Shown here one piece after another: positions 22,446 to 58,604 of a stretch of 64,000 nt of DNA. The notes below the pieces were generated by a model that saw nothing but the letters and a program-made list of their open reading frames with translations, did not search any database and was not told the DNA's origin. The position numbers and the translations under genes were made by a program. The DNA lies in the NCBI RefSeq assembly GCF_004010195.1, contig NC_057718.1:53429413-53493412 (forward strand), given 5' to 3'. Source of the stretch: Chiloscyllium plagiosum (Eukaryota). Position 1 is the stretch's first letter. Each line of letters starts with the position of its first letter.

Positions 22446-22905
22446 GGAGTGGCACGGTGGCTCAGTGGTTAGTACTGCTGCCTCATAGCACCAGGGTCCC
22501 AGGTTCGATTCCAGCTTCGGGTAACTGCCTGTGTCTGCGTGGGTTTCCTCCGGGTGCTCCGGTTTCCTCCCACAGTGGAAAGTGAGGACTGAAGATCAGG
22601 GAGGAAGACAGCTTCTTCAAGGAAGGCATCCTTGCAATAGATTCCTGAAGAAGGGCTCATGCCCGAAACGTCAATTCTCCTGCTCCTTGGATGCTGCCTG
22701 ACCTGCTGCGCTTTTCCAGCAACACATTTTCAGCTCTTTCCTCCCACAGTCCAAAGATGTGCAGGTCAGGTGAATTGGCCATGCTAAATTGCCCATCATG
22801 TTAGGTGCATTAGTCAGAGGGAAATGGGTCGAGGTGGGTCATTCTTCAGAGGGTCAATGTAGACTGGTTGGGCTGAAGGGCCTGTTTCCATACTGTAGAG
22901 AATCT
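22446..22905 (+). mobile_element. HE1-type SINE split by a PLE-derived insert
   Basis: A-box TGGCTCAGTGGTTAG and B-box GGTTCGATTCC. The SINE sequence resumes at 22737. Confidence 0.9.
22577..22736 (+). mobile_element. PLE-terminus mini-insert with a hammerhead core and 14-bp TSD
   Basis: TSD TTTCCTCCCACAGT at 22563-22576 and 22737-22750. Core CTGAAGA-A-GGGC-TCAT-GCCC-GAAA-CGTC at 22645-22672. Confidence 0.85.
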
Positions 22906-24154
22906 TTAAAAAAATCCCAGTCTGTTATCTGCAAGTCCATGTAAAGTATATTTTTCAAAGTAACTGTTGCAGCCCAGCATCTCATCATATCAATGAAACT
23001 GGAAAGCCCCCACTAAGTGTAAAAGGGGGAACTGACAAGGCAATACTAGGCTTCTGGAGAAACCAAATTTCTTCTGGCTTTTCAGCTGCCCCTTAGTCTT
23101 CTATTCTGCTCTTGAAAGCCCACTGAAAGTTCAGCTCTGCGCTTGACCTTAATTTGGAACAATCACATTTCTAAGCCAACAGGTTAAACATTTCAGATAA
23201 ATCCAATTTATTGATATGTTTGTGAGGCAATTTTGTACATTATAAATGTAATTGGATGTATAAAATGCCAGTTAAGGCCAAGTGTAATGTGATAACCATC
23301 TCCACAAATCACCTATAAATGTAAGTTGCATTTTTAAATTAGAGAGATTATTATTGCAAAGTAACTAAGCAAATTTCTCAAGTAAGTTAACGAAGATGTA
23401 CGTCACTCCTTTACTAAACAAGGTTTAATTATCCAGCTGTAAAACCATTTAATTAGAATCAAAAAAACTATTGTGCCTTTGTCTGCTGGTTTAATTTTTA
23501 AAAACTACCTCATTTCTAATGTCTACAGTTAATAGTGGGAATGTTGAAGGATCAACTTTATCACTGGAAATACAATGTTAGCAAATCCAATTGGTCCTGA
23601 AACTTAAGGTGAACGCAACATCATGAAAGGTCTGAATGACTACATCTTCCAAGACTTGAAGAACATGTTGTTTTCAAATACAAATATCTCAAAAGTAAAT
23701 GAGGAGAAACTTGAACAGAGGTCAAATGGGAACAAACTAAGTAAATATATTGGGCTAAATGTTCTTGTACCAGACTGACAAGGGAGATCAAGGGGGAAAT
23801 TTGAGAGACATGTGAGAGTCATTAGGCATTGATAGTTATCAACATATTTGAAACAAGCTAATGAAATGCCAACATTCAAAAAGAATGACAAAGCAGGCAG
23901 GCAGCAAAACTATTATATTTACATTTCGTATATCATTTTGGCTAGACTTTTATTCTTGAATAACGCTCTGCCTATTAATATTCAATGTCACTAAGGAATA
24001 AATTGGACAGTGATGTCTGGGCTAAATATTCCTTCAATCTTCCCCATGCTGTTATATCCTGTTTATAGTATAGTGATCAGAACTGCACATAGAACTCCAA
24101 GCACGATCTAACCAAGGAGGAAGGCCCTTCAAAACTTGTCTACTTTCAGATCAA

Positions 24155-24378
24155 CTAGGAGAAAGTGAGGACTGCAGATGCTGGAGATCAGAGCTGAAGA
24201 ATGTGTTGCTGGAAAAGTGCAGCAGGTCAGGCAGCATCCAAGGAGCAGGAGAATCGACATTGCGGGCATAAGCCCTTCATCAGGAATCCTGAAGAAGGGT
24301 TTATGCCCGAAACATTGGTTCTCCTGCTCCTTGGATGCTGCCTGACCTGCTGCGCTTTTCCAGCAACACATTTTTCAG
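24155..24378. mobile_element. Fold-back PLE-terminus mini-element with 15-bp TSD
   Basis: Inverted arms around an apex at ~24286. TSD CTACTTTCAGATCAA at 24140-24154 and 24379-24393. Hammerhead cores are partly mutated. Confidence 0.85.
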
Positions 24379-26905
24379 CTACTTTCAGATCAAGGCTTCT
24401 AGAAACAAAGTCTAGAATATAGTTTGCATGGTTTATGGCATTGCTAACTTGTAGTGCAACTTTTACTGATTGACGTATTTGTTCACCCAAGATCCCTTTG
24501 TTCCTTGACCCCCACGCATCCACTAAGTCATGTGATATCATTCCAAAACATGGCCCCATATCACATTTTCATTTCCTAATTGCTATTCTATTCCCCAACA
24601 TCAGTAATATCCTTCTGACATATTCGGAGTCCACCTCAGTAGGAATGAAATTGTGAATGATACCAAATTGGTCAAAGTTAGAAATTATGGCTAGAAATGC
24701 ATGGAAGAATTGGCATGAAGCTGGAATGCTGAAAGGCTGGTAATATGGTCTGGAAAGGTGCGAGTGAGGTCGCTGATGCTTAGCAGTGGCACTGCTGGCA
24801 TATGGGAATGTGTTGGTGATGCTGGCTTCCTGGATCTCTGATTGGGCTGACAGCTACTAGGGATGGGTCACCATTCTTAGGAGGACAGTAGCACCAGCAA
24901 CAACCAATTAATTGACTGTCACCAGTAAAATGCAGCCTCCTCACATTGGCACCAGGGTTGGAATCCCTGCCACCTTAGTGAAAGTCTCTGCTGAGTTTTG
25001 ATTCAAAAGTGTAAATCATTAATGCATATTATGAATAGGTATGTGGTTCCAGCATTTATCCTTGAAGACTACTTCCCACCATTTGTCACTCCAAATAACT
25101 ACTCTTTAATCCGCCTCTCTACATTCTGTTTTTGAGCTGGCAAGCAATCCATGTTTCGACTTGTCCCTAGACTCTGCATCCTCTGTCCTCATTCATTAGT
25201 CTATTATGGAACATATAATTAAAGCCTTTGAAAATCCCATATGTTGCATTTGTTGCACTTCCATTGTCTGAAAATTCAATACTGTTGCCAAGTAAGGTTT
25301 TCTCTTTTGAAATCTAGGCTGGTTGTTCTTTCTTTTCCTTTTGTTTCTTCTCTGGATGTTCTTCTATTCAGTCCTTCAGTAGGGATTGAATTAATTTTCC
25401 TTCCACACTAGACTGGTCTATCATTCCTAGGCATGTTTTGTCTCCCTTCTTAAATGTAGGAATTTGTTAATTTTCTGCTTTGGATTCTGCAAGCCTTCTT
25501 AGTCTTCTTCAGTCTGATTGAACATTACTCTGTGGGGGTTGCCTTGTTGAAGTGCTTCTCTATAATTATGACATTCTATATGAAAGTCCACCAAAATTCC
25601 AAATGCAGTTATGAGGAAAATGATTGGCAAGTGCTCCATGTTTACTGTTAAATAGCCTGACTTTCGGAATTGAAAATTAGCCGTTAACTTGAAGATGATT
25701 CATATTTGGCAACAGCCTAGTTAACAGCAGTCAGCGTGGATTCACATTGGAAGGAACCTACATTTCACCAATTACCCTGAATGTTTTGCAAAGTGGTAAT
25801 CTTGGGCGACTCTGATAAGACCACAGACATGCAGAGCATGAACTTCAAAACAGCTTTAGATCAAGTTTGAAATTGAAAGCTAATAATAACCTAAAACTCC
25901 TGGCATTCAGGCAAACTCTTAGAATGGATGAGAAGCTGACAGAAGGATTGGAAACAATAAGTGCTTGTCAGTGGAGAAATGACATTGCAGTGTTGGTAAT
26001 GAAAGGGTATCGCAGGGCTCATTGTTCTTATGGAATGGTGTCGTGAAAATGACTGCTTGAATGAAGAACTGAGAAGATTACTGTGGATTTTTAGGTCCTA
26101 AGCATTAAAATTATTGCTTCTTCTTCCCTTGGGGATAGTTGATGTCACTAATTCTCTTGCAGCAAAAATATTGGCATTGATTGAGCTAATGGGTCAAATT
26201 TCTGTGGGGAGTTTTGTGATCTTCTGGCATAACTTCAGCAAGAAACCAGAAGGTACATGATAAAATAGTCAGTGTTTTTCATGCTTAGGACCTGAAAATA
26301 CACAGAAAGTTATTTCTTCACATTTTCCATGAGCCTGATCAGGAAACTTCTGCACTGCACATCTTAGTTGAAAACTATGGCATTAAGTAGAAATTACAAA
26401 AATGAACAGTTTCATATGAAATTGTGCAATGGGTCTTACTGCTTCATCAGCTGTATTTTTGAGAAAAGGATAAGTTGCACAAAATTACATTTTTGTAATG
26501 TTGCTTTAGCATCTTTTGAAGTGAAAATGAACTTCAAACACAGAATGTGTATTTCTAAGTGGTGTCTAGGGCATGTTGTCTGGAATTCTTTTTGATGTTG
26601 AACTAGGCTTTAGCATTGTGAAATATAAATCGACACCAACAATGTCAAAACAAATTGTTGATGTGGTTAAGCCTTTTTCTGGGCTTTGATTTTTCATGTA
26701 AATTTCTGATTTTCAGTTGTTGAAATTCACCCAATTGTGCAACTGTATAACATTTCGCTCATGTATAACTGTATCGCATTTCATCGATCCATGAATAAAG
26801 ATGTGGGATTCAAATTAACTAAACCAAGACATTCAACATAATCTGAAATGCCATGGTCGAGATAAAATTAAACATGTTGTGTGCTGTCAAGGGAAAATTA
26901 GACCA

Positions 26906-27651
26906 AATAAAGTTTATACTGGTGTCATTACATTATCTTGTTATTTGACCAAGTTGTGGAATCAAAACATCTGGAAAAGATGGTGCACTGTGTAATTAAT
27001 ATTTCACTGAGGCCAGAGAACTAAATTTAATATTCTTTTTGCCACAGTTTGCCTGGAAGAAAATGATAATTTATTTACATTAACAGTTGTGAAATGATTA
27101 AGGTGAACTAACCTGGAACACAGGAAGATTCTTTGCGTTGAATCTCACTTTACTTGGATACATTTCAGTTGCTTTGAGTTTTCTCGGGGTATTTCCACTA
27201 CAGGGCCCAATTAACTTTCTTATTGTACCTTATCAAACTCTCCGCATTATCTACTTTGCCTTTATGACATACCTTATATCTGATTTTAGCCTCATCTTCC
27301 TACATGCCATTGGTACCACAACAATTCACCACTTTGTGGGTGTCCTTTGAAAGACTGCTATCCTTAATGCCCATAACGTCTTTAAAAAGCCATTGTGCGC
27401 CCAAATAAAGTGAGATTCAACCTAAAGAATCTTCCTGTGTTCCAGGTGAGTTCATCTTAATCATTTCACAACTGCTAATGTAAATAATTATCATTTTGTT
27501 TCAGGTAAACTGTGGTAAAAAGAATATTAAATTTAGTTCTCCGGCCTCAGCGAACTATTAATTATATTGTGCAGCATCTTTTCCAGATGTTTTGATTCCA
27601 CAACTTGGTCAAATAACAAGATAACTTAATGACATCAGTATAAACATTATT
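26906..27651. repeat. Long inverted repeat: arms 26906-27157 and 27401-27651, 243-bp spacer
   Basis: Manual alignment gives about 22 differences in about 250 bp (~90% identity). Confidence 0.92.
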
Positions 27652-28229
27652 CAGTGGATAATGGGATTAGTGTTGGTAATCTGGTGTTGCCTCTCCCCAA
27701 TAGTGTAATGGCAGAGCAACCACAAAGCCACACTGTTCACAACAGAGAGCGAGTGTGACTGACACTGCCTCGCACATACAACCCCATTCTGTTACCCTCA
27801 TCACTGCTGAAACACCAGTGTACCTATCCTCCCGTCTGCATACAGTTTCCAAATTATTGCTACCCTGTCTCAAATGCCCACTGGACACCCATATCTTATC
27901 ATTGTCCAGTCAGGAAACATCACATACTGGCAAACAACTGGGCAATTCCAAACATGAACTTTCATTTACAGCCAGCAAAAACAAACCTAAACAAAAATGC
28001 AGGCTGTAGTTCATCCTCATAATGCAAACCAAAGGGAAGTGTAATGAGCAACAATTAGACTACATTCGATAATGGTCTGCTGCATGCGGCTCTCATCTAT
28101 TGGAAGTGGTGTCAGTCAGGTCCTGTCTGACTTGTAGCAGCCAATCCAGCACAAGGAGAACTCTCTCTTCCCCTGTGTTCCTGTTCTCCTCTTTGAAGAC
28201 TGCTCACATTCCCCAGCTCTTTACCAGCC

Positions 28230-31689: not shown

Positions 31690-32630
31690 AGAACATAAAA
31701 GCCAAAGAATTTGTCATTTATATAAATAATTTGGATGTGAATATAGGAGGAATGGTTAGTAACTTTGCAGATGACACCAAAATTGGTGGTGTAATGGATA
31801 GTGAAACAGTTTATCTCAGAGTAAAATGGAATCTTAATCAAATGGGCCGATGGGCCGAGAAGAGGCAGATGGAGTTTAATTTAAATAAATATGATGTGTT
31901 GTACTTTGTAAGGCAAATCAGGGCATGATTTATTAACTTTTAATGGTAGGGTCCTGGGGAGTGTTTCTAAACAAAAAGACCTTGAAGGTGGAGTCACAGA
32001 TAGACAGTGTAGTGAAGAAGGCATCTAGTACACTTGCCTTTATTGGTCAGCACATTGAGTATAGGAATTGGGATGTCATGTTGCTACTGTACAGGACATT
32101 GGTTAGGCCACTTTGGAATATTGTATTCATTTCTGGTTTCCCTGCTTTAGGAAAGGTATTGTTAAACTTCAAAGAATGCGGAAGAGATTTACAAGAATGT
32201 TGCCAGGGTTGAGTGGCTGTACAGGCTGGGGCTGTTTTCCCTGGAGCATCAGAGGCTGAGAGGTGACCTGATAGAGGTTTATAAAATCATGAAGGACAGA
32301 GATAGGGTGAGTAGCTAAGGGCTTTTTGTTTGGGTAGGGGAGTCAAAAACTGGAGGGTATGGGTTTAAGGTGAGAAGGAAAAGATATTAAAGGGACCTAA
32401 GGGGCAACTTTTTCAAGCAGATGGTGATGCGTATTTGGAACGAGCTGTGAGAGGAAGTGGTGGAGGCTGGTAAAATTTCAATATTTAAAAGGCATCTGGA
32501 TGGGTATGTGAATAGGAAGGTTTTAGACGGATATGGGCCAAATGCTGGCAAATGTGAATAGCTTAATTTAAGATATCTAGTAGGCACAGACCAAAGAGTC
32601 TGTTTTGGGCTGTACAACTCTACGACTCTA
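31690..32630 (+). mobile_element. CR1/HER1-like LINE 3' fragment
   Basis: FVIYINNLD...SNFADDTKIGG RT motif and LYRTLVRPL, running through the 3' tail. Confidence 0.9.
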
Positions 32631-33445
32631 AATAGGAGCAGAAGTAGTATATTCAGTCCCTCATGTTTACCCAATGATTCAATAAAAGTATGGATGAACT
32701 GTCCCAGGTTTGAAGTCCTTCTTACCAGCTCATCATAGCTCCCACTTCTACGATATTTCAAAAATCTATCTACCTCCTCTTTAACATGTCAGTGATTTAA
32801 CCTCCACAACTCTGTGGGGTAGTGAATTCCAGATATTCACTACTCTCTGGGAGAATAAATTTATGTCCCTTAGTTCAAGATTTCCCCTCAAGTAGAATCA
32901 TCTATCGAAGATCTACCCTGTCAGGGTTCCTCAGAATCTTGAGTGTGGTGTTGGAAAAGCACAGCAGGTCAGGCAACATGCGAGGAGCAGGAGAATCAAC
33001 ATTTCAGGCATAAGCCCTTCATCAGGAAATCTTTCTGAAATCTTTCCTGAAGAGGGACTTATGCCCAAAACATCGATTCTCCTGGTCCTCGGATGCTGCC
33101 TGACCTGCTGTGCTTTTCCAGCACCACTCTCTCAAATGATTTCCAGCACCTGCAGCCCTCACTTTCTCCTCAGAATCTATGTTTCAATAAGATTACTCAT
33201 CATTCTCTAAACTCTAATGAACAAAGGCCTAACTGGTTTAGCCATTTTTAATAAGCCAACTTCATTCATCCCAGGAATTAGCCTATGCATCTTACTTGGA
33301 CTGCCTCCAATGCCAATATTCTTTTCTTAAATGCAGGAACAAAACCTGTACCAGTACTTCAAATTCAGCCTTACCAAGACCCTGTATCATTTAAGAAGAC
33401 TTCCCTGTTTTTAAATTCCAATCCTTTAGCAATAAAGGCCAAATC
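32631..33445 (-). mobile_element. Older CR1 3' fragment carrying a PLE hairpin insert; likely continues at ~34020 and ~34250-34880
   Basis: Reverse-strand CR1 3' sequence. RKPVNLTSVIGKMLK at ~34800-34880 is the CR1 RT N-terminal motif. Confidence 0.65.
32940..33166. mobile_element. Fold-back PLE-terminus mini-element with 12-bp TSD
   Basis: TSD TCCTCAGAATCT at 32928-32939 and 33167-33178. The apex contains a duplicated GAAATCTTTC. Hammerhead cores are decayed. Confidence 0.8.
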
Positions 33446-33459
33446 TATGTCTTTTATCC

Positions 33460-34021
33460 AAGGTTAGGCCACTTTTGAATTATTGTGTGTAATTCTGGTC
33501 TTCTTCCTTTTGGAAGGATTTTGTGAAACTTGAAAGGGTTCAGAAAAGATTTGCAAGGAAGTTGTCAGGGTTGGAAGGTTTGAGCGATAGGGAGAGGCTA
33601 AACAGGCTGAGGCTGTTTACCCTGGAGCATCAGAGGCTGAGGGGTGACCTTATAGAGGTTTATAAAATCATGAGAGGCATGGATAGGCTAAATAGACAAG
33701 GTTTTTTTTCTCTTGGATGGGGTAGTCCAGAACTAGAAGGCATAGATTTAGGGTGAGGGGGGAAAGATTGAAAAACAGACCTGAGAGGCAACTTTTTCAT
33801 GCAGAGAGTAGTACGTGAATGGAATGAGCTGCCAGAAGAAGTGGTGGAGGCTGGTACACTTACAACATTTAAAAGGGACCTAGATGGGTATATGAATAGA
33901 AAGGGTTTAGAGGGATGTGGACCAAGGGTTGACATATGGTACGAGATTAATTCAGGATACCTGGTCAGCATGGATAAAAGGTCTGTTTATATGCTCTGTC
34001 TCTCTATGACTCTATGACTCT
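33460..34021 (+). mobile_element. CR1/HER1-like LINE 3' fragment
   Basis: KLERVQKRF...RLRGDLIEVYKIMRG, WNELPEEVVEAG, and tail CTCTATGACTCTATGACTC. Confidence 0.9.
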
Positions 34022-40000: not shown

Positions 40001-40007
40001 AGACCGT

Positions 40008-42318: not shown

Positions 42319-42520
42319 ATTTCCAATATCCATTTTGCTAATGTACCTTGTCAAATCTTGTGATTTTCTACAATACAATCCATAACAAGAGTATAAAAGA
42401 ATCATGGTTTGCTGTTTACTGTATAATCTTGAAGGAGAAAGTGAGGACTGCAGATGCTGGAGATCAGAGCCGAAAATGTGTGGCTGGAAAAGCGCAGCAG
42501 GTCAGGCAGCATCCAAGGAG

Positions 42521-42568
42521 CAGGAGAATCAACGTTTCGGGCATGAGCCCTTCTTCAGGAAGTTCCTG
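42521..42568 (-). ncRNA. Minimal type I hammerhead ribozyme motif (GUU triplet)
   Basis: Minus strand CTGAAGA-A-GGGC-TCAT-GCCC-GAAA-CG-TT-GATTCTCCTG. Confidence 0.6.
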
Positions 42569-42603
42569 AAGAAGGGCTCATGCCCGAAACGTCGATTCTC
42601 CTG
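42556..42603 (+). ncRNA. Minimal type I hammerhead ribozyme motif (GUC triplet)
   Basis: CUGAAGA at 42566-42572, helix II GGGC/GCCC, GAAA at 42586-42589, palindromic ACGU helix III, predicted cleavage after C42593. Helix I is CAGGAAGUUC/GAUUCUCCUG with an internal loop. Confidence 0.7.
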
Positions 42604-43002
42604 CTCCTTGGATGCTGCCTGACCTGCTGCGCTTTTCCAGCCACACATTTTCAGCACTGTATAATCTTGCCCTGGAATGGAGGCAAGAGTAAAGCACAGA
42701 TGGACAAGGATCCTTGCCTGTATGAGCAAGAAGACAAGTGGCAATGGAATGTAAGAGGTCTAACAGTTGCAGACAATTTCAATGTCTTTTTTTTAAATTC
42801 ACTCATGGATGTGGACATCACTGGCTGGGCCAGCATTTATTGTCCATCTCTAGTTGTCCTGGAGAAGGCGCTGGTGAACTGCCTCAGAAATGATCCTTTT
42901 TCCCCTGCACTAACACTCATATTGAGGCTTTAGTGCAGTCCTTCCATCCATCATAAGCTACATTTGCCCAATGACCAATATTAACATTCATGTCACCTTG
43001 GG

Positions 43003-44043: not shown

Positions 44044-44230
44044 AACACACAAAAACTGAGATTTGCTGGTGAAATCCAGCAGGTCTGGCAGGGTCTGTTG
44101 AATTGGACCCAAAACGTTAATTCTGCTTTCTCTTCACAGATGCTGCCAGGTGTGTTGAGTTTCTCCAGCAATTTCTGTTTGTGTCTTTCGACACAAAACA
44201 TCTCCAACATCTGCAGTTCCTAGTTTTATT
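44044..44230. mobile_element. Older fold-back PLE-terminus element of a different subfamily
   Basis: TTGCTGGTGAAATCCAGCAGGTCTGGCAG is inverted against CTGCCAGG...TTTCTCCAGCAA, with extension CTCCAACATCTGCAG and similar flanks TTCTCTTAA. Related half-copies lie at ~45120-45225 and ~55605-55690. Confidence 0.55.
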
Positions 44231-46045: not shown

Positions 46046-49000
46046 TTTTTTTATTTCAAAAATATACTTTATTCATAAAATATATTGATGAACTGTACAA
46101 TTGGTCATGCCATACATACGTAAGCATTCCATTTCTTTGCATTCAGAGATAGAGTAATAATTCGTATATACAAGTCTGTACATTGACTATCCAGCTATTC
46201 TGCTGAGGCGTCAGCGGAGCCCACTTGCTGCGTGGGCCCCCTGTTCTTTGGCAGACAGATGTTACATGGTGGTGTTTCCCCACCGCACCTTGGCGGCAGC
46301 TGCCCCGAGCTTCAGCACATCCCTCAACACGTAGTCCTGGACCTTGGAATGTGCCAGTCTGCAACAGTCAGTCGGGGTCAGCTCCTTCAGCTGGAAGATC
46401 ACCAGGTTTCGGACAGACCAAAGAGCGTCCTTCACCGAGTTGGTGATCCTCCAGGCACAGTCAATGATTGTCTCGGTGTGCGTCCCGGGGAACAGGCCGT
46501 AGAGCACGGAGTCCCGCGTCACAGAGCTGCACGGGACGAACCTCGACAAACACCACTCCATTCCTCTCCAGACTTCCTCTGCATAGACACATTCCAGAAG
46601 GAGGTGTGTGACAGTCTCATCCCACCACAGCCGCTTTGAGGGCAGAATGTGGTACGGCAGAGAGTCTGGGCCTGCATAAAGGATCTCACAGGCAGAGCCC
46701 TCCTCACCACCAGCCAAGCCATGTCGTGGTGCTTGTTGGAAAGTTCTGGCAATGAGGCATTCTGCCAAATGACTTTGACAGTCTTCTCAGGGAACCGCTC
46801 GATAGGATCCACCCTCTCCTTTTCCCGAAGGGTCTCAAGGACACTACGTGCTGACCACTTCCTGATGCACTGGTGGTCAAAAGGTGTTTTTCTTCATAAA
46901 TTTCTCCACGAAGGACAGATAATATGGAACGGTCCAACTACTTGAAGCGTTCCACGGCAGTGAGGCCAGGCCCATCCATCGCAACACCGGGGACAGGTAG
47001 AACCTTAGTACGTAGTGACACTTTGTGTTTGTGTACCGGGGATCCATGCACAGCTTGATGCAGCCACAAACAAAGGTGGCCATCAGGGTGAGGAAAGCAT
47101 TGGGTGTGTTTTTTCACCCATTGCCAGAGCTTTGTACAGCGAGTCCCTTCGGACCCGGTCCATCTTTGATCTCCACACAAAATGGAAGATGGCAAGGGTG
47201 ACTGCGATGGCACAGGTTCTGAGAATAGGCCTGACCTGTGCCACATATAAAAACACTGACAGTGCCTCACACCTGATGACCAGGTTTTTACCCGCGATGG
47301 AGAGCGACCGTAGCTTCCATCTGCCCAGTTTCTGCCTCACTTTCTTGATATGCTCCCCCCAAGACTTGGCACATGCCCCAGCCCCTCCAAATCAAATACC
47401 CAGCACCTTCAGGTGGTCAGTCCTGATGGTGAAGGGGATGAAGGATTAGTCGGCCCAGTTCCCGAAGAGCATGGCCTCGTTCTTGTCTCGGTTTACCTTG
47501 CCCCTGAGGTCCATTTGAACTGGTCACATATGCACAAGATTCTGTGCAAGGACAGTGGATCCAAACAGAAAACGGCGACATCAACCTGCAGGCCCCCGCT
47601 GCCAGGAATAGTCACCTCTCTCAGGCTCGCATCCTTCCTGATGGACTCAGCAAATGGCTCTATGCAGCACATAAACAAGGCAGGAGAGAGAGGGCAGCTC
47701 TGCCTGACTCCAAATCTGACTGGGAAGCTATCTGATTCCCACCCATTGATGGAGACTGCACTGACAATGTTGGTGTAGAGCTGTCTGATCCAATTGCAGA
47801 TTCCCTCCCCAAAGCCCATTTTGGAGAGAACATCTCTCATATACGTATGTGATATCCTCTCAAAGGCTTTCTCCTGGTCCAAGCTGGTGAGGCAGGTGTC
47901 CAAACCCCTGTCCTGCACGTAGGCCATCGTATCCCTGAGGAGTGCGAGACTCTCAGCGACCTTCCTGCTCAGTATAGCACAGGTTTGGTCGGGGTGAATC
48001 ACTGACCCCAGAGCAGACCTGACCCGGTTGACGATGACCTTTGCCAAGGTTTTGTAATCCGCATTTAATCGTGAGATTGGTCTCCAATTTCTGATTTCCT
48101 CCCTCTCCCCCTTCCGCTTGTAGATGAGGGTGATGATGCCTTTCCTCATGGATTCACTCATGGTACCTGCCCGAAGCATACTGACATACACCTCCAGCAG
48201 GTCCTGGCCAATCACGTCCCACAGAGCAGAATAGAGCTCGACCGGTAAGCCATCGCTTCTGGGAGTTTTATTCTTTCCGAAGGACCCGAGGGCCTTGGTC
48301 AGCTCGTCCAGAGATAGCGGCTGGTCCAGCCTCTCCCGTGTTCTGTCATCTAAGACCTCAATGATAGCGGACAGGAACAACTGGGAGGCTGCGCTGTCGG
48401 TCGGCTTTGAGTCAAACAGACTGACATAGAAGGATTTGCTGATCTTCATGACGTCAGCCTGAGTTGATGTTACTGAGCCATCTTCTTCCTTCAGGCTGCT
48501 GAGCACAGAGCTTTCTTTGTGCACCTTCTGGAAGAAGAAACATGAGCAAGTCTCGTCCTGCTCCACGGAGCGGACCCTGGACTGGAAGAATATCTTGGAG
48601 GCCTCCGAGGCAAAGAGCGAGGCTTGTTGGCCCTTCACCTCCTGGAGGTCCTCCGTGACATCGACCCCCAACGTCTGAAGCAGGAGCAGGTTCTGCATAC
48701 TTTCCTGGAGCTGGGACAGTTTTCCCTGCCTCTCTCTCACCTCTTGAACACCTTTGAAGATGAAGAACCTCTTGATGTTCCCTTTTACTGTTTCCCACCA
48801 GTCCGCTGGGGACTCAAAGAGGGGCTTCACGGTTCTCCAACCTGCGTAATCCCTCGAGCTCCTCAATGTTTCTCGGGGTCAACAGCTTTGTGTTCAGCTT
48901 CCACGTTCCTTTACCAGCCTGCTGCTCATCCTGTAGGTGACAGTCGGCCAGCAGGAGGCAGTGGTCAGAAAAGAACACTGGCTTGACGTCAGTGGATCTG

Positions 49001-49194
49001 ACCGAGAACGTTCGAGACACAAACAGATAATCTATCCTTGAGCGTATAGACCTGTCTGCCTGTGACCAGGTGTATCTACGCTGTGCTCCATCTGCAGGGG
49101 TGCTGGTGATGTCGTGTAGCTTGGCACCTTTGACCATTTCCATCAGGACTCCGGACGTGGTGTCCAGTTTACTGTCCCTCCCGCCAGCTCGACC
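46046..49194 (-). mobile_element. Tx1-clade LINE, 5'-truncated, disrupted ORF2 (APE endonuclease end, RT, CCHC), 20-bp TSD
   Basis: YTWS...SRIDYLFVS...SDH; NWRPISRLNADYK, LDQEKAFERISH, GVRQSCPLSPALF; CPQSGC/ETVTHLLLEC. 3' end AATAAAGTATATTTTGAAATAAAAAAA. TSD ATGGTGAGATGTTTAGTAAC at 46026-46045 and 49195-49214. Confidence 0.95.
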
Positions 49195-50351
49195 ATGGTG
49201 AGATGTTTAGTAACACTGGACAAGAAAACCACATCAACATCAAGTTCCATCTCATTTCATCTTTTATATTGTTCACAAGTGGCAATGGTGACATTACTGT
49301 TAGGTGGTGGTGAGGTGCAAATTGAGAGGGATTAATACTTGTTAAATGCCACAGCTTGCCTCATTAATATTTATTCTCTCATCTTACTGAACTCTCCAAA
49401 TAAGCTAGTTACTGGGAAAACCTGACAAGGAAACCAGACTGGGTACCAGGCCAATTCTACACAGTGTTTGCTCCAAACAAAATTTTCATTAGCCACAACC
49501 ATACTGCAGTCCAGGGCATAGCCAACGGGCACCAGGCACAAACTCACCACTTCCACGGGATATTGACATCTGAAACCAGCCAACCCACCAAACCATGCTG
49601 GCAGTTGTAGCATTCAATAGCACTGCAGGGCATGCCATCAACTAGCACTGAAAGCAGCAAGACGCTGCACAAAGGCTCAGGCACCCAGCTCACAGACAGA
49701 ACCAGGCTGCATTGAAGGGATACTTGATAGTTCTCGGAGTACTCGATCACCTAGTTCCAACCTGCACAGCCGCAGCATCCATACCATGCCATTCACTGCC
49801 AATTGGCACAAAAAAAGAAAGAGACAGTTTGCCTCACTGGTCAGCAGGTCTCAGACTAGAGAGGTGCAAATCTTGCAATATAATAGTGTGTTGCATCAGT
49901 CTCACATCTGAACAATGTGTCAGCAGCTTATATTACAGTCAATCTGTGTTCAGCAAGCAAAGTCTTAAAGTGTGGGAAGAGAATTCCTCACTGAAGTTTA
50001 TGGAAACACGTATCAATCAGGTGGTGTCACCATAGTATGTGAAGGGAATTGACCACATCCAGGCATCTGGTTGGGGTTTAAATCAAGCAAGGAGTCCATG
50101 CCTCTGCTGTTCAGGGAGTGGATCATGGTAAATCCATTGGCTCTGTAGCACAAAATCCAAGAGGTGTGCCTAATGTGGTCATGGCGATATATATATACAC
50201 CATTCAGATGTCTGGACATGTTTTGCCTCGAGCTGTGCAGTCATGTTGGCTGACAGGGTGAGCCACAGTCAGTCTGTTGGGTCTGTCAGCAGAACCTAAC
50301 AGGGAAGGTTGTACCATCTCAGCTGCGGCCATGGGACTAACTGTCTTGGAT

Positions 50352-50566
50352 AGAGACAAAAAAAACTGCAGATGCTGGAATCTACAGTAGACAGGCAGGA
50401 GGCTGGAAGAACACAGCAAGCCAGGCAGCGTCAGGAGTTGGAGAAGTTGATGTTTTGATGTAACCCTTCTTCAGGGCTAAAAAGGGGTAGACCCAAAACA
50501 TTTACATCTATACCTCCTGATGCTGCCTGGCTTGCTGTGTTCTTCCAGCTTCCCGCCTGTCTACAT
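50352..50566. mobile_element. Fold-back PLE-terminus element of a third subfamily, decayed
   Basis: GTAGACAGGC...GAAGAACACAGCAAGCCAGGCAGC is inverted against GCTGCCTGGCTTGCTGTGTTCTTC...GCCTGTCTAC. GGACTAACT occurs on both flanks, and there is a minus-strand CTGAAGAAGGG remnant. Confidence 0.7.
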
Positions 50567-51077
50567 TGGACTAACTCTCAACATGTTAGTCTTTGAGATA
50601 GGGGGCTGCAGGCTCTGGGCAGGGGTACAGTATAATTGTGAAGGGAAGGCAGGACCTGCAAGGGAGGGAGACATTTAAACACTGTGGGAAGGGGGTAATG
50701 CAGGAGGGGAGTTGTCAGCTGTCAGGAGCACCTTGGCTTCAAGGGGGAAGGAATGGACCACACAGGGTATGGACACCTCAAATGCCAGATGCTGAATGGG
50801 AAACATGGGTAGGCCTAGACTCTTATAGATTAGTTGGGTAGAGACTTGGGAAAGTGGAAACCTTGTAGGGTTGACAGGATAGGCTACTAGAAGAGAACTC
50901 AGATATCTGTGGGTTCACTGGTATATTCAGGCTGAGGCTGAAAGCCACTGACAGAGGAGTGCTCACTGTCATCATCTATGGCTGCATCTACAGTGAGTGG
51001 GTAAGTGACTCATGAGAGAATAGACTTCAGCACATGCTGACCATAGGATTTTTAAAGGATAAGAACATTGCTCACAG

Positions 51078-51354: not shown

Positions 51355-53048
51355 ACACAATGTTCCCCTGCTTCCAGATGGTGCAATAAGCTCCCAGCTC
51401 AGACCTCCCTCCAATGAACATCATCTATGGCCATGAAGTGCTGCCCAGTTACTCCTAGGATTCATTTACGGTCTAAACAGAGATTCACAATCTCGTGACA
51501 ATTTTAACACCAGCAACATTTATGCAGAAACCAATAGTCAGGTACAAGTTTTTTCCAACAGTATCATCAAAATGGCTTCAATAGGTTTTCTTCTTTCTTT
51601 CCCTCCCACTATGTCTTCATGTACTCCCTGGTTCCACAGCTGAAGGGAACCGGCTCGGCAGAGGAGCTCATTGACCCTGCAGGTTTGTTGGGGAGAGCCC
51701 AGGAGTGTACGTATCTGGATGGGCTGAACATGTTGAGGATCTTCTGGCTAGAGGTAAATTGACCCTCTTCAAATTGAACAACTAAGGGTCAGAGGGGGTC
51801 AGGCAGGGTGGAGGTGGAGGACCTGACCACCTCTGCAGCATCCTGAGGGGAAAGTGTGGATGGCCCTGTGTGAGATTTCATGTCTGACTGGAGGCTCCTG
51901 GCACTGCCCTGTCTCCTTGGGAGGAGGGGTCAGCTGTACTGGTGTCAAGCTTTGTTCCCATCATGTATTTGGTCATGAGGACCAATGGAGAGGGTGACGG
52001 GGTACAGTATGTGTGCCCCTCTCCAGCAGCCCTGAGGGCACGGAGTCTGGCACTTCGTGGCAGCTGCCAACCTCTCTATGGTGTCTGCCAGGTATTTACA
52101 GGATTTGCTGTACTGCTGCAGCCTGTGACTAATGAGGACCATTGCCTCCCACATATAAGGTTGTTGTATCTGGGCTGCTGATCTGTACAGAAGGCAGCCT
52201 TGTCAATGCTTCCTCTGATGCCTCCAAACTGCCATACTCAGAGGTCCAGGTTGATGGTATTGGAGCGGGGTGCTCCTCAACAGCGTTCAAGGCCAGACTA
52301 GAAGTGTGACATAAACCCAAGGTCCCAGTTGATTTTTAAAGAAGCGTATGGCGTTTATCTTTTTTTAATCGAGGGATCAGGGATTATGCATGATGAGTAA
52401 AGAATCATAATTGTTTTACTGTACAGGTGGTGGCCATTGTGTCTGCACCAGCTACCCACTGAGCATTGTGACTTAGTGCCATTCTTCTGCCTTTTAGCTG
52501 TACTCTGGCGCATTGTTTCTATTCAACTACCCATCTAGTACCCTTCAACTCCTATAGACCCATACTCTCACGCAAACCCTCTCTTATAAGCTCACACATA
52601 CACTCCCATACTCCTACCCTCTCACAGACTTATACCCCTTTACACTCACACTTAATTCTTTTTTGCTCAAAAACTGCATGAATCCATGTAAGATTCTGTA
52701 AATCCATTTTTTAGATTAGAATCAGCCTGACCATTGTGGCACAAACAGTCTCACACACAGAACACCTCACATCTTCAATGCATTATCTGGGCCGACATGA
52801 CACCAATTCCTGTTCCTTATAATAATCTCTTGTCCTTCTTTCCCAATATTTTGTGCAATAAAGTTTAGGTATTTTGTTTTCTAATGATAGAATAGAGTTG
52901 AAGGCTCATGAATTATAAATTGGTCACAAAATATACTTGCTTAATATTTGTTAAGGCAATTGTGACAAAATATGTAGCTGCTGATTATTCAGGTTTATTG
53001 TAAGATTTAAATTGTTGTATGAGTTAAAAGGGAATGTACATCAATTGA

Positions 53049-53790
53049 AAGCAAATCTTAGCACGACTTATACACTTAATGGTAAGGTCCTTGGGAGTGT
53101 TGCTGAACAAAGAGACCTTGGATTGCATGTTCATAGCTCCTTGAAAGGAGAGTCGCAGGTAGATAGAATAGCAAAGAAGACATTTGGTATACTTTCCTTT
53201 ATTGAATATAGGAGTTGGGAGGTCATATTGTGGCCATACAGGACACAAGCCAATTTTGGAATATTGCGTGCAATTTGCCTCCTTCCTTTTGGAATGATGT
53301 TGTGAAACTTGAAAGTGTTCAGAAAAGATTTACAAGGATGTTGCTAGGGTTGGATGATTTGAGCTATAGGGAGAGGTTGAATAGGCTGGGGCTGTTTTTC
53401 CTGGAGTGTCGGAGGCTGAGAGATGACCTTACAGAGGTTTATAAAATCATGAGGGGCATGGATAGGATAAATAGACAAAGTCTTTTCTGTCTGGCAGGGA
53501 GTCCAGAACTAGAGGGCATAGGTTTAGGGTGAGAGGGGAAAGATATAAGAGGGACCTAAAGAGCAACTTTTTCATGCAGAGAGTGGTGTGTGTATGGACT
53601 GATCTGCCAGAGGAAGTGGTGGAGGCTGGAACAATTGCAGCATTTAAAAGACATTTGGATGGGTAAATGAATAGAAAAGGTTTAGAGGGATATGGACCAA
53701 GTGCTGGCAAATGGGACTAGATTAATTTAGGATATCTGGTCGGCATGGTTGAGTTGGACTGAAGGCTCTGTTTCCATACTGTACATCTCC
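53049..53790 (+). mobile_element. CR1/HER1-like LINE 3' fragment
   Basis: YTLNGKVLGSVAEQRDLG and KLESVQKRFTRML, ending ACGACTCTATAAAAA. Confidence 0.92.
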
Positions 53791-55093
53791 ACGACTCTAT
53801 AAAAACGCAAGTCCAAAGAGAGAAAGCATCACCGCCAATGGTTAGAAATGGTGTGCAATGATTGAGAGTGACAACACAGTTAATGATAGAATAAAGAATG
53901 GTCCTGTGGTGGGAATGAACTCAGGCTTCTCCTGAGGACCAGAATTCCTATCTTGTAGAGGTGAGTAGACAGATGTTGGGATCTCTTTCATCCATACGGA
54001 TTCTCTCTGCCCTGTTGTAGGCGGTGTTCTGCTATAATGAGCAAAAGATGGGGCTTGAGTGAGTTTACAGTGGGTGGCACAATTGTTAGTGCTAGCACAT
54101 GTTGGGGAAAGGTACTGAGATGCATTGAAAGACTGAGGAAGCTGCAGTGTTAATGACACACATTCAGTGGTGAGCATGGCAATGCATGAGCCTTGATGAG
54201 AGATGGATGCTGTAGCAGAGATGGTGTCCGCATGTAGTAGCACAGAGAAGAGTGTGGCTCTTATATCAACAGTGATTTCTTGACCTTCTTTCTGCATCGC
54301 TGGCCATTCCTCTGCATAGTATATCTTGGTGTACTCATTGTTCTGTACACAATTTCAATAACTTTGTAAACAAAGCAACTTAAGTAGAAGGGTCCAAAGA
54401 AAAATTTAATTAACCAAACATGCCGCATGATGCTAGAGGGAATTCAGTCCCATTGCGGTGATGAATTGTCATAATAGGAAAAGGTGACACATTTTAGAAT
54501 TGCAATTGTTTTTAATTGACCTCTTAGTCTTTCTGAAATTTTCAGTACATTTATTTTGGAATACAAGATACATTTAATAACTTGCATTTGAATCAGGAGT
54601 AGCACATGAATGAAGGTTGCCTGATAGTAGAAGCTGAATCTTACATATTTTTGGTTAAATTGAGTTACGTTGACTTTTGTTTTGGTGGGGGGGGGGGGGG
54701 GGGGAGTCCCATCATGAGGCCCAGAGAGATTATTCGTCACTAGTTACTAAATGTGTCTTATTAACTACCTACCATTTCCCTATGGTGTACTTTCTGTCCA
54801 CATTGATCTCCATTTTATAACATTTTAGACCAATGCCAGAGCTTCATGGTAGAATCAAAAGGAAAGTTTGTGGAAACATCAACATCAATGCTGGGTGCTT
54901 TCTCTCCATTTTGCATGTTTTTGCTGAGCATCATGGCCACACAGAGGCTAGTGACCAGTTAAGGGATGCTCTTGCTTGTTAAATGCCTTATTAATAACCC
55001 AGCTCACCTTAACATTTCAGCTTAATGTTAATATTCAGCTTCCTATCAGACCAAATGCAGCAAGTAAACCAGACATCAAGAATTCTCAATGTT

Positions 55094-55310
55094 CATAGAA
55101 CCATAGAATCCCTGCAGTGTGAAGCAGGCTATTCAGACCATCAAGTCCATACCGTCACTTCATAGAGCATCCCACCCAGTCCAACTCCCCTACCCTACCC
55201 TATCCCTGTAGCCATGCATTTTCCATGCTAATTCACCTAGACTTGGTCACTGTTGGCTACTTAACACAGCCAGTCGACATAACCTGCACAACTTTTGAGT
55301 GTCAGAGGAA
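55094..55310 (-). mobile_element. HE1-type SINE 3' half
   Basis: CATAGAATCCCTGCAGTGTG... matches the start of the minus-strand copy at 28613. Confidence 0.7.
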
Positions 55311-55920
55311 TTGTTACGATCCCAGCTGATGTTGTCACTGGACCAGTCAGATCCCCAAGCTGGAACCTGTTGGATCATTCTTTACATAGTTTGATTTTAA
55401 TGAAGTGGCCTCTGACTGAAATCTAGGTTGCAGGATAAGTTTTGGCCAAATGATCAAGGACAATGCTCCTATCACAACCGTGAATGCTCACTACTAGTAA
55501 TCCCTTTGTTTGCCTCCCCTTTTATTTTGTCTAACTATTCACTCATACCTTTCCCATAGCTCCCATCAGCAGTATAAAGGGCACCTGATATTTGCTGTTC
55601 CTTGTTCTGACGATCAAAGGACTTGAAATGTTTTCTCTCCACAGATGCTGTCAGACCTGCTGAGCCTCTTTAGCAATTTGTTTTTGATTAATTCAGTTCT
55701 CCAGTTCTGTTTAATTTTGTGTGTGGATAGCTTGGCTTGATTTATTTTATTTTTCCTTTTGTAACAAACTATTGTATTACTGTTAAAACCAGATCTATAG
55801 CCTGGCACGCTTGTGTTTCAGTGAAAGATCACCACATTAAATTAAAAATGAGCTATTTCTTCAGATTTCATTCTGGGATCTGACTTGCCTCATAGTAACA
55901 TCAGCTGGGGATCATCACAA
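55311..55920. mobile_element. Element with ~60-bp imperfect terminal inverted repeats (TTGT...ACAA)
   Basis: Left TTGTTACGATCCCAGCTGATGTT...AGTCAGATCCC versus right GGGATCTGACT...AACATCAGCTGGGGATCATCACAA. Flanks AGAGGAA / AGAGGAG. Confidence 0.65.
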
Positions 55921-56092
55921 AGAGGAGTTGTGCTCAATGTAGTATTCTTAAAGATCAAATACCACTGAAGGCGTGCACGTATTCTTCCAATTTCCTGCTG
56001 AAATTCCAGTAGAAGGTCATAAAGAAGCAACGGTATCAATGTTGAAACTTTATTGCTGGAACAGCACAGCAGGTCAGGCAGCATCCAGGGAA

Positions 56093-56140
56093 CAGGAGAT
56101 TCGACGTTTCGGGCACAGGCCCTTCTTCAGGGCTTTCCTG
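56093..56140 (-). ncRNA. Minimal type I hammerhead ribozyme motif
   Basis: Minus strand CTGAAGA-A-GGGC-CTGT-GCCC-GAAA-CG-TC-GAATCTCCTG. Proximal helix I is weak. Confidence 0.55.
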
Positions 56141-56175
56141 AAGAAGGGCCTGTGCCCGAAACGTCAAATCTCCTG
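56128..56175 (+). ncRNA. Minimal type I hammerhead ribozyme motif
   Basis: CUGAAGA at 56138-56144, GGGC/GCCC helix II, GAAA at 56158-56161, CGUC at 56162-56165. The first helix I pair is lost by a G to A change. Confidence 0.6.
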
Positions 56176-58604
56176 TTCCCTGGATGCTGCCTGACCTGCT
56201 GTGCTGTTCCAGCAATAAAGTTTCAACATTGATCTCCAGCATCTGCAGACCTCACTTTCTCCCCAACGGTATCAATGCACTGGTCTCAATCGTGACAAAT
56301 GTAAGGCCCAACAGCATCAAACATCCAGGGAGCCAATTCACAGTGGAACCCAGAATTGGAGGCCAAGTTGATGGTCCTGCTGTGACTTGCTAGCAGGTCC
56401 AATTGACCTAATGGCCCTGCACTCTACTTTCATTTTAATTCATGCATATTTGTTTAGGGCTGCTCCTGGCTGTGGCAAAGTCTGGTCCAGGAATGCAGTC
56501 CTTTAAATCAGTCTTGAATGTCAAAAACTCTTGCTTGCACATACCAGAGTGTGGTCAACTCCCCTCCACCATCTGGCTTCCACAGTACCATGCCCTCTAA
56601 TGCTCCCCCCACCACTACACCCTGAGCTCTGCTCACACTGCCCTGCTACTCATCCATTTCCACATCCCTCTCCACCACCAACACCCTTCCCCAACCCCGC
56701 TGTCCAGCTACTACGTCACTGCTCACTTGGCCTCCCCATGTTCCCAGGCTGAGGCTAGAAAATATTCTCCTTCCCTGCATCCTGAATCCTGAGTCTGGCC
56801 AATGTCAGAGAACAGCCTGGAGTGTGAGTTTGGCAAGGAGGATGGTGAATAACAATGAATGTTCAGCAGTGGGAGGTACAGAGCGGTGGTTAGAAAGGCA
56901 GCTTTGAGAGCACTTCAAGATATTTTTAATCAAACTGCTCAGACATATAACTCATTTCTGGAGCAGATGGGACTTGAACTCAGGTCTCCTCGCTCAGAGG
57001 TAAGGATATTGCCATGGCACCATAAAAGTCCTCACAAAGAAAGCACTGCAGTTTAGAAATATAGATTAATTAATAAAACTAATCAATCTGTTCACTCCCT
57101 CGCTGTCACACTCCCTCCGTCACACATTCCTCACTCACTGTTATGCCTGTTTTACTGCACACCTCTGGACCAGGTGAGACTTGAACCTAGACTTCTTAAT
57201 CAGAGGTAGGGATACTACCACTGCACCACAAAGTCCCAGAAAGCATTGCAAAGCTCTTAAGTGTTCACAAGTATTTGTAATCACTGTTAAGCTTTAAATA
57301 AAAACATCTGAGACCAATTGAAGCCATATTACAGCCAAGGAGAGAAGTTACAGTTCAAGAAACTCAAAGGATGAATGGATATTTATAACCATGGTTGCTT
57401 CCCCTTCTATTGTTGACAGGACGATCTGCATAATATTATGTTACAAATACGAGGATTACAAGATGGCTGTGCTTACAGTTTAAGACAAAAATTTTAAAGA
57501 TTATATGAGGCATTTATCTAACTAATGAAGTAGGTATTGTAACTGTTAAAAAGGTTAAAAGGAGGTAAGAATATATGTTGGAAAGACGATGTTGATTATT
57601 TACATTTACAGACAATGGCAGCCCTCATCTTGAAAGACAGTTTTAAGGTTAAAAGCAATAAGGGTGGAAATGCAAAACAATGGAAGTACTCTCTAAGGAG
57701 CTAAGAATCACTTTAAACTGGATACATGGAAAAGTTACAAACTAGTTAAAGGCCAGTATGAAGTATAACTGATAAATCCATTTCACAGATGAGTTAAAAA
57801 TAAAAGGAAAAGCTCAGTTCCGCAGTTTAAAATATAGGTTACCTACAACAAATTTGTTTTGTGAACAGTGCTTTTGACCCGTTTGTTACAGCAAGAGTCT
57901 TAAAACATGAATTGTTGTGTCATTCTCTCAGCAATCAACTGGAAGTTTCATTCTCTTCTCATTTATTTTGACAAAAGTTGTGGCAGGCGATTGTGGGAGA
58001 ACATCCTCAGCAGTCCGCGTAAGCGATTTTAAAAAATCTTCTGCTATGCAGAAGTGGAGGAGGAGGAACTAGAAAAAGAAAAAAGAAATGAAGTCTTATT
58101 CTATTTTAAACAAAGTTAATTGAGTTTTTGTCATGGCAATGTTGAGTGCAGAACTTGTTTCTGTGAGTCAGCCACATGGGCTTCTCCAACGAAAAAAAAT
58201 TATTTCAATGTTCTACTCTTTTCTTCTATTTTATTAGGCTTGGTTTGCAGCACCAATCTATTTGCACGACAACATATTTTAGCTTAAATGCCCCCCTCCA
58301 CTTGTCATTATGCATCTTAGTCACAATACACTGTGAAGGAAGAAGTACCGTTGAATTAACATCATGCTAAAGTAAGGCTACAGTCACTTATTTTAAACTA
58401 ACATGCTTGGTTTTATCTGCCAACTGTACAATGCTTCATTGTGCTATTGCCTGGCAATTGTTCTAAATTCAATTACAGAGAGCTCGGTATCTTAAAAAAG
58501 CCATAAGGGTTAATTTTATACTGTGGAGAGCATCAGGAAGCAATGGATAGAGTAATCACACCACCCACCAAATGACATTTGAGGCCGAAGGTGTATTCAT
58601 GCTA

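What the first reader, a model, noticed from the sequence alone, without database searches (positions are those of the whole stretch)
22577..56263. Family of tiny TSD-flanked PLE-terminus insertions with back-to-back hammerhead ribozyme cores
Seen: five short inserts (22577, 24155, 32940, 42432, 56042) with 12-15-bp TSDs and little or no coding sequence. Four are hairpins whose apex lies just 5' of a CUGANGA-A-helix II-GAAA-CGUH core on each strand, and one arm carries a ~30-nt extension (GATCTCCAGCATCTGCAG...CTCACTTTCTCC). Established: Penelope-like elements carry minimal type I hammerheads with a palindromic helix III in their terminal repeats, which can be inverted. Inference: these are either a stereotyped fold-back product of PLE insertion or a non-autonomous two-strand ribozyme hairpin family mobilised in trans. 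At about one per 10 kb here, a large genome-wide dsRNA/ribozyme reservoir is possible. I cannot tell whether this has already been described.
Basis: partly seen in the sequence, partly recalled or inferred. Interest (0 to 1): 0.7.

Follow-up and report, generated by a model that had tools for sequence, protein, structure and literature searches.

The report
Cap-terminated Penelope hairpin stubs in shark
These five short insertions are stubs of an abundant Penelope-like jumping gene rather than a self-spreading ribozyme family, and their ends pile up where the element's RNA likely starts, suggesting each hairpin was likely built on the spot from two short DNA copies of that RNA's first 95-130 bases.

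Summary
All five inserts and their 12-15-bp TSDs are real; four are ~95-bp-arm hairpins with a tail on one arm. They are the shortest forms of an abundant RT + GIY-YIG Penelope-like element (PLE) of a shark-type genome; longer copies run from the arm into the 3' UTR and ORF. About 110,000 short head-to-head pairs are extrapolated genome-wide. They are not copies of a master hairpin: apexes vary, and the one recurrent asymmetric apex I counted genome-wide carries its tail on either arm (649 vs 773) in several subfamilies, which also argues against simple fold-back copying. 5' ends pile up 3-5 nt before the hammerhead core at an initiator-like TCATTCC, with excess non-template G one base upstream (59% vs 15% at a control position): the likely mark of a copied mRNA cap. 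Likely mechanism: both nicked target strands prime at the two internal start sites, run off the capped end, and join by microhomology. In the hairpin each ribozyme is predicted to be locked by its antisense arm. The architecture is known; I did not find the cap-stop evidence in print. The scan noted such stubs before in this and other genomes.

The parts
22563..22750 (+). Insert A (22577-22736) with 14-bp TSD, sitting inside a tRNA-like SINE copy: antisense tail piece (22577-22597), antisense ORF-start piece (22598-22644), sense arm from GATTCC (22640) with hammerhead core at 22645. Not a two-ribozyme hairpin.
24140..24393 (.). Hairpin B (24155-24378), 15-bp TSD; tailed arm on the minus strand starts at G+ATTCC (-4 plus G), untailed arm on the plus strand; both hammerhead cores decayed
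32928..33178 (.). Hairpin C (32940-33166), 12-bp TSD, older copy; about 15 nt of filler at the apex; tail on the plus-strand arm
42418..42669 (.). Hairpin D (42432-42655), 14-bp TSD; both arms start at -3 with one extra base between; tail on the minus-strand arm; plus-strand core (42566) intact
56028..56277 (.). Hairpin E (56042-56263), 14-bp TSD, a distinct young subfamily; short filler at the apex; tail on the plus-strand arm
9612..10330 (-). Longer 5'-truncated copy of the same PLE family: end of the ORF (endonuclease region), 3' UTR and untailed arm
   Evidence: 70% identical over 737 columns to coding locus L130
50334..50579 (.). Older-subfamily head-to-head pair with tail (arms 50475-50365 and 50482-50568); candidate 12-bp TSD matching 11 of 12, read by eye
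44060..44217 (.). Very old, degenerate head-to-head pair of the same family
   Evidence: E 1e-3 and 8e-10
55623..55704 (+). Very old single-arm remnant
   Evidence: E 2e-6

Best explanation
The inserts are minimal insertions of an abundant endonuclease-positive Penelope-like retrotransposon, and each hairpin was likely assembled at the landing site from two short cDNAs of the element's predicted capped RNA leader. Shown: the arm is the terminal repeat (pLTR) of an RT + GIY-YIG element; copies end at two fixed 3' points (about +90 and +125, counting the C of CUGA as +1); 5' ends pile up at -5 to -3 with excess non-template G at -5; head-to-head pairs nearly always have one tail. Inferred steps: (1) transcription starts at the A of an initiator-like TCATTCC, which is also the first base of hammerhead helix I; (2) the element's protein nicks both target strands about 12-17 bp apart; (3) one 3' end primes at the arm end and the other at the tail end of the uncleaved RNA; (4) when this happens on the 5' pLTR copy, RT runs off the cap after about 95 or 130 nt and adds a C opposite the cap; (5) the cDNA ends anneal to each other by 1-5 nt of microhomology (hairpin) or to the other target end (single arm), sometimes after jumping to nearby ORF-start RNA (insert A). 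Priming on a downstream pLTR copy would give the longer copies. The stubs are likely dead ends, and the ribozyme in a hairpin is predicted to be masked.
For: Parent: arm preceded by 3' UTR and the ORF C-terminus and followed by tail and ORF start; RVT_1 hit; C-terminus aligns to residues 823-891 of a homolog, overlapping its GIY-YIG domain at 801-884. Random sample of 160 x 10 kb: 44 of 168 filtered arms start at -5..-3, 2 of 168 at the ribozyme cut (+29). Genome-wide exact-core counts fall 46,052 > 36,608 > 26,745 > 22,306 > 19,801 from -3 to -7. G is 5,850 of 9,863 non-template bases at -5 (59%), against 14, 23 and 15 of the first 100 listed at -4, -6 and -7. None of 30 G loci continues into the 3' UTR; in at least 6 neither target nor partner arm supplies the G (read by eye). 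After two pyrimidines, which removes the commonest partner-arm contexts, G is still 50 of 100. 43 of 48 short pairs have one tail (p 1e-8 against 0.5). Asymmetric apex: tail on the +3 arm 649, on the -3 arm 773. Arms agree at subfamily-diagnostic sites (+43: 1 of 46 discordant). PMC11167929 shows in vitro that a PLE protein nicks and extends both strands, starts at two internal sites bounding the tail, and needs no ribozyme cleavage. PMC9341517 links a 5' untemplated G plus initiator to cap copying for L1.
Against: No transcription start was measured: RNA reads from one poly(A) single-cell run covered the arm (2,644 reads) but showed no pile of molecule starts, and 94% ran on into unlike flanks; a second run laid 0 reads. 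The stop is a zone, not one base: loss is still 17% at -6 and 11% at -7, and 19,801 cores run through -7. Much of the G at hairpin apexes can equally come from the partner arm. In the unselected sample only 8 of 74 matches to the -4 motif had G (C 50, T 11, A 5). The G control rests on the first 100 listed rows of one contig. 3 of 48 pairs had two tails and 2 had none detected. The in vitro work is on a Poseidon-clade element, not this one. No intact full-length parent was recovered (assembly gaps).
Confidence: 0.72

Rival explanations
1. Same PLE by-product made of two cDNAs, but the stop at -4 is an RT pause or protein block at hammerhead helix I inside a longer RNA, and the G is a non-templated addition or microhomology artefact, not a cap.
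For: -4 is exactly the outer pair of helix I (AUUC with GAUU/GAAU); many copies read through it; no RNA start pile seen. PMC4209133 notes that an intron end maps to the 5' end of helix I in D. virilis Penelope, so this boundary can be marked in other ways.
Against: Helix I is only 3-4 bp; the G excess is specific to -5; the site matches the initiator pattern YYANWYY (recalled consensus); there is no AG splice acceptor at -4 and the bases before the G vary; jumps into ORF-start RNA right after -4/-5 (A, L023, L025, L230) place the template at a pLTR-ORF junction.
Confidence: 0.14
2. Single-cDNA fold-back: one cDNA self-primes and copies itself, and the endonuclease trims one arm to leave the tail (akin to the self-priming idea in PMC3846280 and the EN-resolution idea in PMC8557442).
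For: Arms agree at diagnostic sites; palindromic apexes occur; one-sided tail in 43 of 48 pairs.
Against: In 649 of 1,422 counted copies of the asymmetric apex, each arm holds sequence the other lacks (one has -3..+2, the other the tail), so neither can be a plain copy of the other. Insert A has antisense tail and ORF pieces with no matching sense copy.
Confidence: 0.08
3. A self-propagating non-autonomous hairpin with a ribozyme on each strand, mobilised in trans as a unit (retrozyme- or MITE-like).
For: Some apexes recur hundreds of times; each insert has its own TSD; PLE-derived non-autonomous retrozymes are described (10.64898/2026.07.22.740005); a few RNA reads cross fold-back joints (8 reads at one joint).
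Against: Four different apexes in the window and many among 48 pairs; both tail polarities and at least four helix-II-loop variants share one apex; the same stop zone appears in single-arm copies; ribozyme fold costs 27-63 kcal/mol in the hairpin; several cores are decayed.
Confidence: 0.05

Closest known systems
Complex insertions of endonuclease-positive PLEs: pLTR, adjacent inverted 5'-truncated copy, one-sided 30-40-bp tail, TSD (Pen2a_Av in PMC3846280; Fig. 2 legend of PMC8557442; passages read)
   Same: Head-to-head inverted terminal copies, tail on one end only, palindromes at the junction, TSD, hammerhead in the pLTR, initiator-like motif in the pLTR.
   Different: Here both halves are often cut down to about 95-130 nt with no ORF, at roughly 31 pairs per Mb; TSDs are longer (10-21, mostly 14-17 bp, vs 8-10); 5' ends cluster with an extra G. 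PMC3846280 proposed self-priming on an antisense template; the polarity data here fit two sense-templated cDNAs better.
Poseidon_Ac internal initiation in vitro (PMC11167929; abstract, main text and part of methods read)
   Same: Two RT start sites bounding the tail; both strands nicked and extended; uncleaved RNA is the template; no ends at the ribozyme cut.
   Different: That study did not address how the two cDNAs are joined or where they end in vivo. In PAc the ORF starts inside the hammerhead; here the likely ATG lies about 40 nt past the tail, and the RT-EN linker has an extra cysteine motif.
Minimal type I hammerheads of PLEs (PMC4209133, PMC6765202; passages read)
   Same: Short helix I, extra base between 9 and 10.1, palindromic 15.2-16.2 with no loop 3, thousands of dispersed copies.
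   Different: Helix II is 4 bp here; in the hairpins each motif is paired to its own antisense copy, not to a tandem partner.
LINE-1 twin priming and cap-derived untemplated 5' G (twin priming recalled; untemplated G from passages of PMC9341517)
   Same: Both target strands prime on one RNA, inversion joined by microhomology, extra G marks a copied cap.
   Different: L1 primes at the 3' poly(A) and the inverted part is a different, upstream segment; here both cDNAs cover the same leader, so the product is a palindrome.
Animal non-LTR retrozymes (10.64898/2026.07.22.740005; part 1 of 5 and passages read)
   Same: Non-coding, pLTR-derived, carry a type I hammerhead.
   Different: Retrozymes are defined as head-to-tail tandem arrays; these inserts are head-to-head or single and show no master lineage.

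Membership tests
EN+ Penelope-like elements | Single ORF with RT followed by a C-terminal GIY-YIG endonuclease | tested here: met
   RVT_1 at E 1.7e-6, just under the curated cut-off; C-terminus aligns to the GIY-YIG region of homolog P0025; seen across broken copies L140, L136, L130, L027; no intact copy and no direct GIY-YIG Pfam hit on L027
EN+ Penelope-like elements | pLTR from partial tandem: 3' UTR and terminal repeat followed by ORF start | tested here: met
   L129 runs ORF end, 3' UTR, arm, tail, ORF start
EN+ Penelope-like elements | Inverted 5'-truncated copy, 30-40-bp one-sided tail, TSD | tested here: met
   43 of 48 pairs one-tailed; TSD found in 32 of 48
EN+ Penelope-like elements | RT phylogeny placing it in a named PLE clade | not tested
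   No labelled clade references at hand; no tree built
Neptune clade | [quoted passage not shown] | tested here: inconclusive
   A CxxxxCxxC motif precedes the endonuclease in 5 of 10 loci scanned; Nematis shares this feature and no tree was made
Minimal type I hammerhead of PLEs | Conserved core, base between 9 and 10.1, G10.1-C11.1, palindromic 15.2-16.2 | tested here: met
   non-CpG variation falls mainly at N7, loop II and the mismatched helix I base; compensatory GAGC/GCTC in 5 of 156 arms; the GAAA columns were fixed by the search pattern
Minimal type I hammerhead of PLEs | Self-cleavage (as dimer or protein-assisted) | not testable with these tools
   Needs an in vitro assay
Non-LTR retrozymes | Head-to-tail tandem units each with a hammerhead | tested here: not met
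   Window inserts are head-to-head or single; short direct tandems exist elsewhere (L019/L020, L023)
Self-propagating non-autonomous hairpin / MITE-like family | Copies share one apex, one tail polarity and one sequence lineage | tested here: not met
   both polarities (649 vs 773), several subfamilies, many apexes; only one apex type was counted genome-wide

The most novel reading that the evidence does not exclude
PLEs make a 'strong-stop'-like cDNA from the capped leader on both nicked strands at once, and transcription starts on the first base of hammerhead helix I, so the genome holds a base-resolution fossil record (about 100,000 hairpins) of twin-primed PLE insertion. This would explain the inverted pLTR and one-sided tail of the whole class and overturn the antisense self-priming proposal.
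Probability: 0.55. Interest if true: 0.65.

Novelty: new variant of a known kind. Interest (0 to 1): 0.48.

Why it matters
How PLEs form their inverted ends and one-sided tail is an open question. These stubs give a simple readout: two fixed start sites, a stop at a likely capped 5' end, and junctions that one self-copying cDNA cannot make. That yields direct tests with 5'-end sequencing and the existing in vitro PLE assay. They also matter for annotation, since such palindromes can be mistaken for MITEs, microRNA precursors (weak Rfam miRNA matches) or a new ribozyme family, and they form a large stock of potential dsRNA in host transcripts.

Tried and rejected
Rfam: no hammerhead match; only sub-threshold miRNA, snoRNA and U6 matches. 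Long 'ORFs' at six loci were assembly gaps, so no intact parent was obtained. Ribozyme-cut templates: rejected as the main source, 2 of 168 arms start at +29 and 7 at +27..+31. Splice acceptor at -4: rejected, no AG there and the upstream bases vary. RNA search: no RNA holder listed on record. Laying three runs gave no start pile and no editing signal that can be told from copy variation; the library is not a 5'-end library and the reads come mostly from dispersed copies. TSD calling on single arms was unreliable (boundary error) and was not used. The total of 260 insertion groups over-counts long inverted pairs. The sequence look-up in earlier findings was empty. Literature searches found the inverted-pLTR/tail architecture but no paper on cap-ended PLE stubs or PLE twin priming; Dfam and Repbase were not available, subscription papers are missing, and I read no supplements, so a prior description there is possible.
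Full report
Numbering used below: +1 is the C of CUGA in the element's sense strand; there is no position 0.

Observation. All five inserts are at the stated places with exact TSDs of 14, 15, 12, 14 and 14 bp. Four are hairpins with 94-97-bp arms, each with the ~35-nt tail on one arm only and each with a different apex. Insert A has one sense arm, preceded by an antisense tail fragment and an antisense piece of the ORF start that overlaps the arm by GATTC. A profile of the arm found 15 matches in the window and none in 10 shuffles, adding three older relatives and a 720-bp coding copy at 9612-10330. The hammerhead core has the features listed for minimal PLE hammerheads in PMC4209133 (passages), but it is decayed in both arms of B and C and altered at the cleavage base in one arm of D.

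Parent element. The 30 loci fetched for the best genome matches to one arm include single arms, hairpins with varied junctions, and copies that continue upstream through a C-rich 3' UTR into coding sequence (one of the 30 was not oriented by the script). That coding end had 98,625 first-look candidates in the genome. L140 runs from the tail into an ORF with an RVT_1 match. The C-terminus aligns to the GIY-YIG region of an 893-aa homolog. L129 is a natural partial tandem: ORF end, 3' UTR, arm, tail, ORF start. The nearest named RT homologs are bamboo-shark proteins at 78% and 73% identity, so the host is shark-like. A cysteine motif in the RT-EN linker hints at Neptune (PMC8557442 passages), but no tree was built and no intact copy was found.

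Abundance. In 160 stretches of 10 kb taken at round coordinates of large contigs (1,544,242 non-N bases) there were 311 arm hits, 308 after merging, including 48 head-to-head pairs with 5' ends within 150 bp. That is about 31 pairs per Mb, or roughly 110,000 genome-wide by extrapolation. The window's four in 64 kb is about twice this mean. TSDs were found for 32 of 48 pairs, 10-21 bp, mostly 14-17.

Two fixed 3' ends. Young arms end at about +90 or at +125. 43 of 48 pairs have exactly one tail, 3 have two and 2 have none detected (p 1.4e-8 against 0.5). PMC11167929 (parts 1-2 of 4 read) shows that an anole PLE protein nicks and extends both target strands, starts at two internal RNA sites that bound the tail, and uses uncleaved RNA. 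The one-tail rule fits one start site per strand.

A 5' stop zone. Of 311 arm hits, 170 passed identity, length and gap filters, 168 after removing duplicate rows. Of these, 44 start at -5..-3, 100 at -7..+12, 26 upstream of -20, and 2 at the ribozyme cut (+29). Genome-wide exact matches to the core fall from 46,052 (reaching -3) to 36,608, 26,745, 22,306 and 19,801 (reaching -7), losses of 21, 27, 17 and 11% per base. Single-arm inserts stop there too, so this is not a hairpin property. Reads from a related organism's run also show loose ends at -4 (95 reads).

The extra G. Among cores reaching -4 without the template C at -5, G is 5,850 of 9,863 (59%). At -4, -6 and -7, G is 14, 23 and 15 of the first 100 rows listed (my counts; Fisher p 1e-19 for -5 vs -7). 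None of 30 G loci continues into the 3' UTR. Read by eye, the G is the last base of the TSD in about 8 (two of them one duplicated locus), is supplied by neither target nor partner arm in at least 6, and could come from the partner arm in most others. After two pyrimidines, G is 50, T 33 (21 of them the likely C-to-T mutant of the read-through sequence) and A 17 of 100. Against this, the unselected sample had G in only 8 of 74 matches, with C 50, T 11 (mostly a subfamily with T there) and A 5. The site reads TCATTCC, which fits the initiator pattern YYANWYY (recalled) with the start on the A at -4. An untemplated 5' G beside an initiator is taken as a possible mark of cap copying for L1 (PMC9341517 passages). 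PLE promoters and start sites lie in the pLTR (PMC2377424 and PMC3846280 passages). Position -4 is also the outer pair of hammerhead helix I. No start site was measured: one RNA run gave 2,644 reads on both strands with no start pile and another gave none.

Not a master hairpin, not simple fold-back. A recurrent asymmetric apex joins an arm reaching -3 to one starting at +3 through 3 nt of microhomology. Genome-wide the tail is on the +3 arm in 649 and on the -3 arm in 773 exact matches, and the listed rows include at least four helix-II-loop variants. A unit copied from a master would fix polarity and lineage. In the 649 class each arm has sequence the other lacks, so neither is a plain copy of the other; this argues against the self-priming reading offered in PMC3846280 (passages). 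Within 46 pairs drawn from all loci held, arms agree at diagnostic sites (+43: 1 of 46 discordant with heterozygosity 0.48; +69: 0 of 44; background 70 of 2,217), so both come from one RNA or one source. Only one apex type was counted genome-wide, so a small clonal subset elsewhere is not excluded.

Ribozyme. Across copies, non-CpG variation falls mainly at N7, loop II and the mismatched helix I base, with compensatory helix II changes in 5 of 156 arms, which suggests constraint in the parents. In a hairpin transcript the 5' arm is the antisense of the 3' arm. Forcing a hammerhead-compatible fold costs 27.5-63 kcal/mol in the 7 hairpin strands where a core was recognised, against 1.9 in A and 1 or less in single arms. 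PLE hammerheads cleave poorly even as dimers (PMC4209133, PMC6765202 passages). Cleavage was not tested.

Mechanism, marked. Shown: parentage, two 3' ends, one-tail rule, 5' stop zone, G excess, both polarities, arm concordance. Inferred: capped start at -4, priming on both nicked strands, run-off and cap copying, microhomology joining, template jumps into ORF-start RNA (A, L023, L025, L230), and dead-end status.

Novelty. The inverted-pLTR, tail and TSD architecture and the minimal hammerhead are described. Eight literature searches found no description of cap-ended stubs or PLE twin priming; Dfam, Repbase, subscription papers and all supplements were unseen. The retrozyme preprint (part 1 of 5 and passages) treats tandem arrays. 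After my analysis, the scan's notes showed 180 findings with the same key words in at least 21 genomes, several with a similar reading; these are not independent support. Verdict: real, a new variant of a known kind, interest 0.48.

Noticed in passing
window 26900-27655: About 750-bp element with ~250-bp inverted arms (I3 and I16, 91-93% complementary) around a ~240-bp spacer, unrelated to the PLE arm; MITE-like.
   Followed up: partly
window 15143-16400: Minisatellite with a 25-bp unit, over 40 copies.
   Followed up: no
window 1246, 2882, 14087, 22450, 43006 (+) and 28777 (-): Dispersed SINE-like repeat with A- and B-box-like head; insert A landed inside the 22450 copy. ARAGORN found no tRNA gene.
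   Followed up: partly
window 46187-49206 (-): Broken non-LTR retrotransposon ORF with RT-like and upstream endonuclease-like pieces (461-aa frame at 47493-48878), identified by eye.
   Followed up: no
window 3849-5200, 32200-34000, 53280-53800: Several LINE-like 3' fragments repeated in the window (families D4, D9, D12, D13); an assembly gap lies at 4246-4853.
   Followed up: no
window 33501-33558: Weak, sub-threshold match to the 5' half of U6 snRNA (E 0.29) at the start of a repeat copy.
   Followed up: no
L081, L179, L013: CATG recurs just before the -4 start in unrelated copies, including a perfect palindromic apex; its source is unexplained.
   Followed up: no
L023, L019/L020, L257: Short direct tandems of the leader (for example -4 to about +195 followed by -4 to +125), suggesting RT jumps after reaching the 5' end; possible raw material for retrozyme-type arrays.
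   Followed up: partly
PLE 3' UTR about 25 nt upstream of the core (L129 1915-1930): Pyrimidine tract ending in TTAG that resembles a splice acceptor; not tested.
   Followed up: no
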